Positions 36,879 to 38,724 of a stretch of 64,000 nt of DNA are shown here, piece by piece (positions within the stretch are counted from its first letter, which is position 1; every line of letters starts with the position of its first letter). The stretch lies in assembly GCF_013004595.1 (NCBI RefSeq), contig NZ_JABEMC010000002.1:62001-126000 (forward strand). The letters are read 5' to 3'. The position numbers were made by a program, and so were the translations under genes. Source of the stretch: Brevibacterium luteolum (GTDB lineage: Bacteria; Actinomycetota; Actinomycetes; Actinomycetales; Brevibacteriaceae). Under the pieces are notes generated by a model, which ran no database searches, was not told where the DNA came from, and was given only the letters and a program-made list of their open reading frames with translations.

Positions 36879-37439
36879 TCAGTCGAGACCGAGGTCGCTG
36901 GTGCTCAGCGCGATGAGGTACGGCAGGCCTGCGGCCTCGACGCGCTCCTTGGCACCGGTGTTGCGGTCCATCACGACGGCGACGGCGATGACCTCAGCAC
37001 CGGCTTCGCGCAGCGCCTCGACAGCGGTGAGCACGGAGCCGCCGGTCGTCGAGGTGTCCTCGACGGCGATGACCTTGCGGCCGGCCACATCGGGACCTTC
37101 GACGCGGCGGCCCATGCCGTGTTCCTTGGCGGCCTTGCGCACGACGAAGGTGTCCTTGGGGGTGCCGCGGACGACGGAGCGGTGCATGATCGCGGTGCCG
37201 ACCGGGTCGGCGCCCATCGTCAGGCCGCCGATCGCCTCGACCTCGTCGAGGTAGCCGGTGGATTCCAGCAGGTCGAGCATGACGTCGCCGATGAGCGGGG
37301 CGCTGCGGTGGTCGAGGGTGACCCGGCGCAGGTCGAGGTAGTAGTCGGCCTCCTTGCCGGAGGACAGCGTGACCTTTCCGCGCACGACGGCGAGTTCGTC
37401 GATGAGCTGCAGCAGCTGGGATTTCGCAGTTTCTGACAT
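36879..37439 (-). CDS. pyrE: Orotate phosphoribosyltransferase
   Basis: LSSGKEADYYLDLRR, GGLTMGADP, VRK..KEHG, VEDTSTTGGS. Confidence 0.96.
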   Translation of the reverse strand: MSETAKSQLLQLIDELAVVRGKVTLSSGKEADYYLDLRRVTLDHRSAPLIGDVMLDLLESTGYLDEVEAIGGLTMGADPVGTAIMHRSVVRGTPKDTFVVRKAAKEHGMGRRVEGPDVAGRKVIAVEDTSTTGGSVLTAVEALREAGAEVIAVAVVMDRNTGAKERVEAAGLPYLIALSTSDLGLD

Positions 37440-37494
37440 GCGCTCAGTCTACGTGGACGAAGCCGAGTGCCAGCTGAAGAGGTCCTGCCTGGAG

Positions 37495-37612
37495 AAACAC
37501 AAAGACCCCGGGGCGCGTCACGCGTCTTCCCGGGGCCTTTGCAGCACTCCCCTCGAGTACCCGGACGCATCCCCATACGTCCGTCATTCGCCCGATCCCC
37601 ACCGGGTCGAAT
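37495..37612 (-). ncRNA. Candidate small RNA: three G-rich-loop hairpins plus an intrinsic terminator
   Basis: Stems CCCGGU-GGGG-AUCGGG, GGACGUAU-GGGG-AUGCGUCC and GUACUC-GAGGG-GAGUGC, then AAAGGCCCCGGG..CCCGGGGUCUUUGUGUUU. Each stem has a G-U pair only on the minus strand; AT-rich DNA lies upstream. Confidence 0.6.
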
Positions 37613-37861
37613 TATCACCATTTAACCATGGATTAGTTGATTTGTGAACTTGTCCTGCGAAGAAAATCTCACCGGTCACACGCGCCACCCGAGTCCGGAA
37701 ATCGGCCTCTTACCTGCGTTTATATTGCATGTTTGGCTTTGCATATGCGAAGCGGCTGATAGGCGGAAGGGGCTGCTCGTGGCGAGGCGTGCCGCTCGCT
37801 GTGCCCGGCTGCCGATTCCCCAAAGGCACCTTGTCTTCACTGCGCGGGCGGCCTCGGGAGT

Positions 37862-38701
37862 TCAGCGGCGTGGCTGCCGGGTGAAGCGGAAGCCGTTGCT
37901 GGCGAACCGGATGAGGGGTCTGGGCAGCACCTGGGCTGCGGCGTAGGCGAGCTTGTACTGCAGGCCGGGCACGGAGACGACCCTGCCTGCGCGGGCATCG
38001 CGCAGCCCCTGCCGGGCGACGGTCGAGGCGTCGACCCAGGCTGCGGCCGGCAGATGCGACATGTCGACGTCCATGCGGTCGTGGAACTCGGTGCGCACGA
38101 ACCCGGGCAGCACCGCGGTGGCGGTCACGCCGGTGCCGGCGAGTGCGGCGGCGAGGCTTTCGGTGAAGATGAGCACATGCGACTTCGCTCCGGCGTAGGT
38201 GCCCATCGTCGTGACCGCGGCCATCGAGGCGATGTTGACGATGCCACCGCGGCCGCGGGCGCGCATCGCATGGGCTGCATGCCAGGAGATGTCCTCAACG
38301 GCGCGGATGAGCACGGTGTCGAGCTTCGCGAGCTCCGCCGGGTCGGTTCTCAGCACCGAAGAGCGCAGTCCGTAGCCGGCGCTGTTGACGACGACGTCGA
38401 CGCGGCGGGAGTCGATGAGGTCGGTGACCTGCCGGATCCCGCCGATCGTCCCGTCGCCCTCAGTCCGGCTGAGATCGCAGCTGAGCACCTCGCAGACGAT
38501 CCGGTAGCGGTGCATGAGCCTGACGGCTGTGGCGTCGAGGCGCTCGAGGTCGCGGGCGACGAGGATGAGCCGGTAGCCGTCGGCGGCGAGCTCATGGGCG
38601 ATCGCCAGCCCGATGCCGCTGGTGGCACCCGTGATGAGGGCGACCGGCGCCTCGGGCGCGGGGGCAGCGGGCACGGAACTCAGGCTGGGTGTCGATGCCA
38701 T
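37862..38701 (-). CDS. Short-chain dehydrogenase/reductase
   Basis: TGATSGIG, VNSAG, YAGAK, PGFVRTEF. Confidence 0.92.
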   Translation of the reverse strand: MASTPSLSSVPAAPAPEAPVALITGATSGIGLAIAHELAADGYRLILVARDLERLDATAVRLMHRYRIVCEVLSCDLSRTEGDGTIGGIRQVTDLIDSRRVDVVVNSAGYGLRSSVLRTDPAELAKLDTVLIRAVEDISWHAAHAMRARGRGGIVNIASMAAVTTMGTYAGAKSHVLIFTESLAAALAGTGVTATAVLPGFVRTEFHDRMDVDMSHLPAAAWVDASTVARQGLRDARAGRVVSVPGLQYKLAYAAAQVLPRPLIRFASNGFRFTRQPRR

Positions 38702-38724
38702 GGCCACAGCATAAGCGCACACGG

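What the first reader, a model, noticed from the sequence alone, without database searches (positions are those of the whole stretch)
37495..37612. Candidate novel sRNA with three G-rich-loop hairpins upstream of pyrE
Seen: on the minus strand, AT-rich promoter-like DNA (about 37610-37750) is followed by three consecutive stem-loops with different stems but the same GGGGA motif at the apex (37587-37611, 37563-37582, 37543-37561), then a 12-bp GC hairpin with a U-rich tail (37540-37495). All four stems contain a pair that is G-U on the minus strand but an A-C mismatch on the plus strand, which indicates selection on RNA structure and gives the orientation. Known: repeated-loop sRNAs exist (6C RNA with C-loops, cuckoo RNAs, CsrB/Rsm with GGA loops). 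Inference: a modular sRNA of about 120 nt presenting G-loops, either a protein sponge or a partner of C-rich RNAs such as 6C. It could instead be an attenuator leader for pyrE, which starts about 55 nt downstream. I do not recognise it as a described family.
Basis: partly seen in the sequence, partly recalled or inferred. Interest (0 to 1): 0.8.

Follow-up and report, generated by a model that had tools for sequence, protein, structure and literature searches.

The report
Brevibacterium small RNA with G-loops
This is a previously undescribed small RNA gene of about 120 bases, found only in Brevibacterium and its close kin, that displays three GGGG-tipped hairpins and stands on its own rather than controlling the neighbouring pyrE gene; what it binds is still unknown.

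Summary
On the minus strand, 37612-37499 folds into three hairpins with GGGG at the apex plus a GC-rich terminator (z -5.8). No Rfam family matches it. The element is a sharp conservation island in 64 of 72 Brevibacteriaceae genomes, spanning four genera. It was not found in 142 genomes of 23 other families of the order.

A conserved -35 / extended -10 promoter ends 7-8 nt before hairpin 1. Hairpin 1 and the terminator covary. Hairpins 2 and 3 (41 nt) are almost invariant.

It is not a pyrE leader:
- pyrE carries its own -10 hexamer 6-7 nt before the ATG, so it looks leaderless, in 24 of 24 loci.
- Other genes separate the RNA from pyrE in many species.
- One clade lacks the RNA and keeps pyrE.

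CsrA is not found in any of 72 family genomes. Hfq and ProQ are not found in this genome. 6C is not found in Brevibacterium. I found no family-wide target.

Verdict: a new, family-restricted, stand-alone sRNA gene. Its exposed G-loops most likely bind C-rich RNA or an unknown protein. A discrete transcript is not yet shown.

The parts
37643..37648 (-). -35-like hexamer (TTCACA here; TTTACA in most relatives)
   Evidence: TTTACA in 36 and TTCACA in 4 of 50 aligned loci. The spacer to the -10 is 17-19 nt in 49 of 50. This is read from sequence; no start site has been mapped.
37620..37628 (-). Extended -10-like element (TG, one base, then TTAAAT at 37625-37620)
   Evidence: the hexamer is TNNAAT in about 39 of 50 loci and a TG lies one base upstream in most rows. 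It lacks the A at position 2, so the strict scan does not list it.
37612..37614 (-). Predicted transcription start
   Evidence: Inferred only. P1 begins 7-8 nt after the -10 hexamer in 50 of 50 loci.
37586..37612 (-). Hairpin 1 (P1) with GGGG loop (37600-37597) closed by U-A
   Evidence: Fold. Six of 10 pairs change on both sides with pairing kept. The loop and its closing U-A are invariant, also in three other genera.
37562..37583 (-). Hairpin 2 with GGGG loop (37574-37571)
   Evidence: Fold. It is invariant apart from A-U to G-U changes in 21 BLAST-found copies and in copies found by the covariance model in four genera.
37543..37561 (-). Hairpin 3 with GAGGG/GGGG loop (37553-37549)
   Evidence: Fold. 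Four of 7 pairs never vary and 3 vary on one side only. Unpaired probability of the first three G is 0.8-0.84.
37489..37542 (-). Intrinsic-terminator-like GC stem (37542-37499) and U-rich tail (37498-37489)
   Evidence: Fold. Six of 10 counted pairs change on both sides. The U-rich run lies only on this strand. One search does not list it, because the loop is over 8 nt.
37446..37451 (-). pyrE's own -10 hexamer (TAGACT), 6 nt before the ATG; not part of the sRNA
   Evidence: a TA(G/C)(A/G)(A/C)T hexamer lies 6-7 nt before the pyrE ATG in 24 of 24 loci. It is also kept in the 5 genomes that lack the sRNA.
36879..37439 (-). pyrE (orotate phosphoribosyltransferase), the downstream neighbour
   Evidence: ORF; Pfam PF00156.
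37862..38722 (-). Short-chain dehydrogenase gene, the conserved upstream neighbour
   Evidence: Pfam PF00106. It lies upstream on the same strand in 45 of 50 loci.

Best explanation
It is a stand-alone small non-coding RNA gene of about 120 nt (about 37613 to 37490, minus strand), restricted to Brevibacteriaceae. A housekeeping-type promoter (-35, and a -10 preceded by TG) starts transcription at the base of hairpin 1, and a GC-rich hairpin with a U-rich tail ends it. The working surface is the three apical GGGG(A) loops, held out on stable stems. The 41-nt H2-H3 core is under sequence-level selection. The RNA most likely acts in trans and without a known chaperone, by pairing its G-loops with C-rich, UCCCC-like single-stranded stretches of other RNAs. 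That would make it the mirror image of the C-rich-loop sRNAs, working as a regulator or a sponge. Shown here: the structure, the strand, the conservation, covariation in P1 and the terminator, and independence from pyrE. Inferred: the transcript ends, action in trans, and the nature of the partner.
For: Fold and strand. There is no Rfam family at gathering score or at E up to 10, and no tRNA or tmRNA. BLAST in relatives matches only query positions about 90-202, that is window about 37611-37499, at 84-90% identity in 20 of 24 genomes of the genus, while the flanks do not match. The covariance model finds it in 64 of 72 family genomes from 4 genera, essentially one copy each, and in 0 of 142 genomes of 23 other families of the order. 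An exact 30-nt core pattern occurs in 49 species records, 48 labelled Brevibacterium and one Sediminivirga luteola. Covariation: 97.4% of cells are paired, and 13 pairs change on both sides against 4.6 in shuffles (0 of 500 reach it). All but one of those 13 pairs lie in P1 and the terminator. The promoter hexamers and their spacing are conserved. Independence from pyrE rests on four points. pyrE has its own -10 hexamer 6-7 nt before the ATG in 24 of 24 loci. pyrE is within about 140 nt in only 12 of 50 loci, and is not within the 1.5 kb held in 26 of 50. Five genomes without the RNA have the dehydrogenase gene and pyrE 57-130 nt apart, with the pyrE promoter kept. Those five form one clade, support 100/99. 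Precedent for G-rich regions that pair with C-rich sRNAs: RosA (PMC8216469, passages read) and RsaI (bioRxiv 10.1101/278127, passages read). 6C acts through C-rich loops without chaperones (PMC6486639, title and abstract start only).
Against: No discrete transcript is shown. The RNA-library data were assembled contigs, which cannot give ends, strand or level. The -10 hexamer lacks the usual A at position 2, and the strict scan found no promoter or terminator. No C-rich partner was found. 6C was not found in Brevibacterium. No cluster of three CCCC-loop hairpins exists in the genome. Genome-wide complementarity has no outlier. The two best candidate 5' regions are kept only in the closest relatives, and their genes occur in only 26 and 16 of 72 genomes. 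That the stems of H2 and H3 are invariant, and not only the loops, is not explained by loop-only pairing. It fits a protein partner, or long-range pairing, at least as well. The 49 pattern-fetched loci are invariant in H2-H3 by construction. The unbiased sets are.
Confidence: 0.5

Rival explanations
1. It is a protein-binding decoy or scaffold RNA. The three GGGG(A) loops and the invariant H2-H3 stems would be recognition sites for an as yet unidentified RNA-binding protein, which the RNA titrates or delivers. This would work like CsrB/RsmZ, but with another protein.
For: Each of the three loops holds GGA at the apex of a hairpin. The 41 nt of H2-H3 are invariant across four genera while P1 and the terminator drift and covary. 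That is typical of sequence-specific recognition. No RNA partner was found.
Against: CsrA, the only protein family known to read GGA loops in this way, was not found in 0 of 72 family genomes, while the controls rang. Hfq and ProQ were not found in G000. No candidate protein was identified, and no gene for one is linked to the locus. Three sites is few for a sponge.
Confidence: 0.22
2. It is a transcription-attenuating leader of pyrE. Transcription from the upstream promoter would stop at the terminator or read through into pyrE, depending on pyrimidine supply.
For: In the window the terminator ends about 55 nt before the pyrE ATG. The RNA lies within about 140 nt of pyrE in 12 of 50 loci, which is probably the ancestral order.
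Against: pyrE has its own conserved -10 hexamer 6-7 nt before the ATG in 24 of 24 loci, so its mRNA would be leaderless. Other genes lie between the RNA and pyrE in many species. A whole clade lacks the RNA and keeps pyrE and its promoter. The PyrR-site model and every other Rfam cis-regulator failed to match. No alternative anti-terminator pairing is evident.
Confidence: 0.04
3. It is a structured RNA of another kind that happens to be transcribed alone, such as a ligand- or metal-sensing aptamer acting in trans, or a processing or stability element at the 3' end of the dehydrogenase transcript.
For: It keeps tight linkage to the dehydrogenase gene upstream, in 45 of 50 loci. Its core is extremely conserved.
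Against: It has its own conserved promoter 150-310 nt after the dehydrogenase stop. In known aptamers the conserved positions lie in junctions and loops, not along whole stems. There is no multi-helix junction, and the three hairpins abut end to end.
Confidence: 0.08

Closest known systems
RosA (Bacillus subtilis) and RsaI/RsaOG (Staphylococcus aureus), stand-alone sRNAs with G-rich regions
   Same: They are independent sRNA genes whose single-stranded G-rich tracts pair with the C-rich regions of other sRNAs: RoxS and FsrA for RosA, RsaG, RsaD and RsaE for RsaI (passages read). Here three G-tracts are likewise exposed.
   Different: There is no sequence or Rfam relationship. Those RNAs are from Firmicutes and are 144-229 nt long. 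Here all the G-tracts sit as near-identical apical loops, and no C-rich sRNA partner has been found in the genome.
6C RNA (Rfam RF01066) of Actinobacteria
   Same: Same phylum and similar size. It is a row of hairpins with a homopolymer-rich loop motif, said to act without a chaperone (PMC6486639, title and abstract start only).
   Different: The loops are G-rich, not C-rich, on the transcribed strand. The 6C model does not match on either strand. 6C itself was not found in 6 Brevibacterium genomes, against 33 of 101 genomes of the order.
CsrB/RsmY/RsmZ protein-sponge RNAs
   Same: They present repeated GGA-containing hairpin loops.
   Different: There are only three sites. No Rfam match. The partner protein CsrA was not found in 0 of 72 genomes of the family.
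PyrR-binding attenuators of pyr genes (Rfam RF00515)
   Same: It lies next to a pyrimidine gene in some species, and a hairpin with a terminator precedes the gene.
   Different: No match to the model. pyrE has its own promoter and looks leaderless. The element is separable from pyrE and can be lost without it.

Membership tests
6C RNA (RF01066) | Match to the Rfam covariance model at or above 47 bits | tested here: not met
   No hit at gathering score in the window, nor at E up to 10 in 37380-37900 on either strand.
6C RNA (RF01066) | C-rich apical loops on the transcribed strand | tested here: not met
   The loops are GGGG on the strand that carries the G-U pairs, the promoter and the U-tail.
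CsrB/Rsm-type sponge | Several GGA motifs in hairpin loops | tested here: met
   Three loops hold GGGGA, with unpaired probability 0.8-1.0.
CsrB/Rsm-type sponge | A CsrA/RsmA protein encoded in the genome | tested here: not met
   PF02599 was not found in G000 or in 0 of 72 family genomes. The controls E. coli, B. subtilis and T. maritima rang.
CsrB/Rsm-type sponge | Match to a CsrB/CsrC/RsmX/Y/Z Rfam model | tested here: not met
   cmscan against all 4227 Rfam families gave no such hit.
PyrR-site or other pyr attenuator | Lies inside the 5' leader of the regulated pyr transcript | tested here: not met
   The pyrE -10 hexamer lies 6-7 nt before the ATG in 24 of 24 loci. The element is up to 1.3 kb or more away in many species, and absent in a clade that keeps pyrE.
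PyrR-site or other pyr attenuator | Match to RF00515 | tested here: not met
   No hit at E up to 10.
G-rich sponge sRNAs (RosA, RsaI) | Accessible G-rich tracts | tested here: met
G-rich sponge sRNAs (RosA, RsaI) | A C-rich-region sRNA partner in the same genome | tested here: inconclusive
   6C was not found. No triple CCCC-loop cluster exists, and the 5 double clusters are not convincing. Only motif scans of one genome were possible.
G-rich sponge sRNAs (RosA, RsaI) | Sequence or structure homology (Rfam model for RsaOG) | tested here: not met
   No Rfam hit.
Independent sRNA gene (generic) | Own promoter and own terminator | tested here: met
   They are conserved in sequence and spacing, and the terminator covaries. 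Both are predictions: the strict consensus scan lists neither.
Independent sRNA gene (generic) | A discrete transcript of the predicted size and strand | tested here: inconclusive
   Only assembled contigs of RNA libraries were available. They cover the locus but cannot show ends or strand.

The most novel reading that the evidence does not exclude
The RNA is one half of an undescribed post-transcriptional control system of Brevibacteriaceae. Its invariant 41-nt double hairpin would be the specific docking site of a still unknown RNA-binding protein, or of an unknown C-rich sRNA. Such a hub would be lineage-specific, in a phylum where Hfq, ProQ and CsrA are missing. The clade that lost the RNA should have lost the partner too.
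Probability: 0.15. Interest if true: 0.8.

Novelty: new member of a known kind. Interest (0 to 1): 0.45.

Why it matters
Regulatory RNAs of Actinobacteria outside Mycobacterium, Streptomyces and Corynebacterium are almost unmapped. My one literature search on Brevibacterium small RNAs returned nothing relevant.

This candidate comes with unusually clean comparative support. It has an unusual design: three near-identical G-loops and a 41-nt core invariant across four genera. This is the mirror image of the C-rich-loop sRNAs (6C, RoxS/RsaE) that dominate Gram-positive riboregulation.

It also has a natural control, a clade that has lost it. That makes the search for its partner directly testable by comparative genomics, or by affinity capture in harmless cheese strains.

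It corrects an easy annotation error as well. The hairpins upstream of pyrE are not a pyrimidine attenuator, and pyrE here looks leaderless.

Tried and rejected
**RNA-seq.**
- One search, with the B. aurantiacum locus L052:1100-2000, listed 13 runs on record as RNA, all kept as contigs.
- I laid four of them, from four studies. Three gave single contigs across most or all of the stretch, which says nothing about a transcript.
- In X2, short pieces at 1443-1488 and 1459-1540 have depths of 49.5 and 37.4, against 8-14 for the flanks. They lie inside the element (1446-1576 there). They may come from other species that share the core, so I count this as no evidence.

**6C as partner.** Not found in G000. 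Not found in 5 further Brevibacterium genomes, while 33 of 101 genomes of the order had it.

**C-rich-loop partner RNA in G000.**
- There are no triple CCCC-loop clusters.
- Of 5 non-coding double clusters, one is the antisense of the element itself.
- One lies in what looks like the origin region next to dnaA.
- One at C1:251796 has no Rfam match.

**Pairing scans.**
- Duplex energies on seeded windows gave only diffuse GC-rich duplexes.
- Exact complements of the loop regions were at chance numbers.
- The longest Watson-Crick plus G-U runs against the invariant 45 nt fall off geometrically (12 nt: 893, down to 18 nt: 2), with no outlier.
- The twin site at C16:124140 lies in a terminator-like hairpin.

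**Candidate target sites.**
- The best two-block chain in the genome is 9 + 11 nt with a 4-nt bulge, at C12:230712, upstream of an NlpC/P60-like gene.
- A triple AUCCCC site overlaps the start of a 177-aa protein at C18:2700.
- Both were followed into relatives. The genes occur in 26 and 16 of 72 genomes, and the sites are kept only in the nearest relatives.
- They are therefore not family-wide targets.

**Other checks.**
- Short identities between the loops and ribosomal RNA (one seen, on contig C10) are within chance expectation for 9-10-mers.
- A coding reading is rejected. A 52-aa ORF overlaps the element, but changes in P1 are compensatory, and 1-nt indels in the terminator loop break any frame.
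- A looser three-loop pattern found only G000 among 401 genomes of the class.

Full report
**1. What is in the sequence.**
Read on the minus strand, 37625-37485 folds into four abutting helices:
- P1/H1, 37612-37586
- H2, 37583-37562
- H3, 37561-37543
- a long GC-rich stem, 37542-37499, followed by a U-rich tail

The MFE is -73.9 kcal/mol, z = -5.76, and 0 of 200 shuffles fold as well. The plus strand folds less well (-52 kcal/mol, z = -3.73).

The three hairpins carry GGGG at their tips: 37600-37597, 37574-37571 and 37552-37549. These are predicted unpaired with probability 1.0, 1.0 and 0.8-0.84.

Three GGGG-loop hairpins within 90 nt occur at only 10 places in the whole 2.97-Mb genome, counting both strands.

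The flanking genes are pyrE (37439-36879) downstream and a short-chain dehydrogenase (38722-37862) upstream. Malate synthase G lies beyond the dehydrogenase. All are on the minus strand.

**2. It matches nothing described.**
cmscan against all 4227 Rfam 15 families gave no hit at gathering score in the 64-kb window. In 37380-37900 at E up to 10 it gave only two chance-level hits, E = 7 and 9.5, both on the plus strand and outside the element. ARAGORN finds no tRNA or tmRNA.

A literature search for Brevibacterium with small RNA / sRNA returned nothing on such an RNA (listing and abstract starts only). Earlier notes of this scan hold nothing.

**3. Distribution.**
A 261-nt query (37700-37440, minus strand) matched 20 of 24 other genomes of the same genus. 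It matched only over query positions about 90-202, which is window about 37611-37499, at 84-90% identity. One more divergent genome matched at 76%, and two matched only in part. The flanks did not match. One 29-nt hit in another family (E = 0.006) is noise.

A covariance model built from 21 copies gave these results:

| Set searched | Genomes with a match |
|---|---|
| Order, 151 genomes | 9, all of this genus; 0 of 142 in 23 other families |
| Family, 72 genomes | 64 (60 of 68 other genomes of the genus, plus G000, and 3 of 3 other genera) |

There is essentially one copy per genome.

An exact 30-nt pattern across H2-H3 occurs in 49 species records of the genome collection. Forty-eight are labelled Brevibacterium and one is Sediminivirga luteola. 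A looser three-loop pattern found only G000 among 401 genomes of the class.

By its dehydrogenase gene, the window's genome groups with B. otitidis, B. gallinarum and a Brevibacterium sp..

**4. Evidence that it is a gene for a structured RNA on the minus strand.**
On 34 distinct copies, 97.4% of cells pair. Thirteen of 36 pairs show changes on both sides with pairing kept, against a shuffle mean of 4.6, and 0 of 500 shuffles reach 13. Sliding the 3' partners drops pairing to 39-51%.

The double changes lie in P1 (6 of 10 pairs) and the terminator (6 of 10). H2 has one, at its outermost pair, and H3 has none.

G-U pairs that would be A-C on the other strand are invariant or dominant in every helix. 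The few changes in H2 are A-U to G-U. This fixes the strand.

One caution: the 49 loci were fetched with a pattern covering the 3' half of H2 and all of H3, so invariance there is built in. The unbiased sets show the same thing. These are the 21 BLAST-found copies and the copies found by the covariance model in three other genera and in divergent species. In both, 41 nt of H2-H3 are invariant apart from G-U-forming changes, while P1 and the terminator drift and compensate.

**5. Promoter and ends (inferred).**
Upstream of P1, 40 of 50 loci carry TTTACA or TTCACA. After 17-19 nt (49 of 50) there follows a TNNAAT hexamer (about 39 of 50), which is mostly preceded by TG and one base. P1 starts 7-8 nt after that hexamer in 50 of 50 loci.

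In the window these are 37648-37643 and 37625-37620, which predicts a start near 37613. With the terminator tail ending near 37490, the RNA would be about 120 nt.

The strict consensus scan lists neither promoter nor terminator here. Both are therefore predictions supported by conservation, not by a consensus match.

**6. It is not a pyrE leader.**
Three independent lines show this.
- **pyrE has its own promoter.** In all 24 loci where the pyrE start is held, a TA(G/C)(A/G)(A/C)T hexamer lies 6-7 nt before the ATG (window 37451-37446). This is the layout of a leaderless mRNA. It holds whether the RNA lies 84 nt or 1344 nt upstream.
- **The two are often apart.** pyrE is within about 140 nt of H3 in only 12 of 50 loci. 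It is within the 1.5 kb held in 24 of 50, and not within it in 26 of 50. The dehydrogenase gene stays upstream in 45 of 50. Insertions therefore always fall after the terminator.
- **A clade lacks the RNA and keeps pyrE.** Eight Brevibacterium genomes give no match (four rechecked with E up to 1). In the five whose locus I fetched, the dehydrogenase gene and pyrE are 57-130 nt apart. There are no G-loop hairpins, and the pyrE -10 hexamer is intact.

In a tree of the dehydrogenase, those five form one clade nested among carriers (support 100/99). That fits a single loss.

**7. What it might bind.**
The loops resemble CsrA sites in having GGA at a hairpin tip. But CsrA was not found in G000 or in any of 72 family genomes, with positive controls. 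Hfq and ProQ were not found in G000 either.

The same search found it in 33 of 101 genomes of the order.

My own scans of the laid genome found no cluster of three CCCC-loop hairpins and no convincing pair. They found no outlier in contiguous complementarity to the invariant core.

Three non-coding places hold three [A/C]UCCCC motifs within 80 nt. Two were worth following.
- One lies upstream of an NlpC/P60-like gene and contains the best two-block complement in the genome: 9 + 11 nt with a 4-nt bulge opposite H2-3'/H3. The next best are 17 nt, seven times over.
- The other overlaps the ribosome-binding site and start codon of a 177-aa protein.

Both genes are patchy (26 and 16 of 72 genomes), and the sites survive only in the nearest relatives. 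They may be lineage-specific targets, but they cannot explain family-wide conservation.

**8. Expression data.**
RNA-library runs that hold the B. aurantiacum locus exist in several studies, but only as assembled contigs. Laid on the locus, they cover it. One run breaks into short, deeper pieces inside the element. This cannot show a start, an end, the strand or the level, so I do not count it.

**9. Best reading.**
It is a stand-alone sRNA gene restricted to Brevibacteriaceae, and I am confident of this at about 0.85.

The most likely mechanism is trans action through the three exposed G-loops on C-rich single-stranded RNA, without a classical chaperone. The closest working analogues are RosA and RsaI, whose G-rich regions pair with the C-rich regions of other sRNAs. 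In design it is the mirror image of 6C.

The invariance of whole stems in H2-H3 is not explained by loop pairing alone. It keeps a protein-decoy reading alive, at about 0.2. The statement as a whole, gene plus G-loop pairing, I put at 0.5.

**10. Novelty and interest.**
This is a new RNA family of a familiar kind. It is well supported comparatively and unusual in design, and a natural loss clade makes partner discovery tractable. However, its transcript is not shown, it has no known target, and it occurs in a narrow taxon. Interest is 0.45.

Noticed in passing
window 37437-37451 (minus strand): pyrE looks leaderless. A TAGACT-type hexamer sits 6-7 nt before the ATG in 24 of 24 Brevibacteriaceae loci, and also in 5 genomes that lack the sRNA.
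   Followed up: yes
L109:990-1180 (G000 contig C12:230590-230780, outside the window): A C-rich intergenic region lies upstream of a secreted NlpC/P60-like gene. It holds 22-nt tandem repeats with AUCCCC and CCCCAC motifs, and a 9 + 11-nt complement to H2-3'/H3 of the sRNA, the best two-block match in the genome. It is kept only in the closest relatives.
   Followed up: yes
L136:900-935 (G000 contig C18:2699-2731, minus strand): Three AUCCCC motifs within 32 nt cover the Shine-Dalgarno region and start codon of a 177-aa protein of unknown family. Two are 9-nt perfect complements of the H1 and H2 loops. The gene occurs in 16 of 72 genomes, and the site only in close relatives.
   Followed up: yes
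loci L033-L081, downstream of the sRNA terminator: The gap between the sRNA terminator and pyrE is a hot spot for gene insertion. In 12 of the 24 loci that hold pyrE it starts 255-1344 nt beyond hairpin 3, and in 26 of 50 loci it is not within the 1.5 kb held. The inserted genes were not identified.
   Followed up: partly
G000 contig C15:58300-58800 (minus strand): Downstream of a cspA-like gene and its terminator lies what looks like the C-terminal remnant of a fatty-acid desaturase with no start, preceded by a C-rich stretch.
   Followed up: no
L102 (G000 contig C12:367850-368300): Repeated TTCCACA-like boxes lie beside the 3' end of a dnaA-like reading frame. This is probably the replication origin region, named from recall of DnaA-box features.
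   Followed up: no
G000 contig C10, around 2744: A 10-nt string identical in sense to the H3 loop region lies in what I take, from recall, to be the 23S rRNA gene on the opposite strand. It is within chance expectation.
   Followed up: no
L052:1443-1540 (B. aurantiacum locus): In one RNA-library run (X2) the contig pieces inside the sRNA have k-mer depths of 37-50, against 8-14 in the flanks. This is suggestive only, because contigs of other species that share the core could add to the depth.
   Followed up: no
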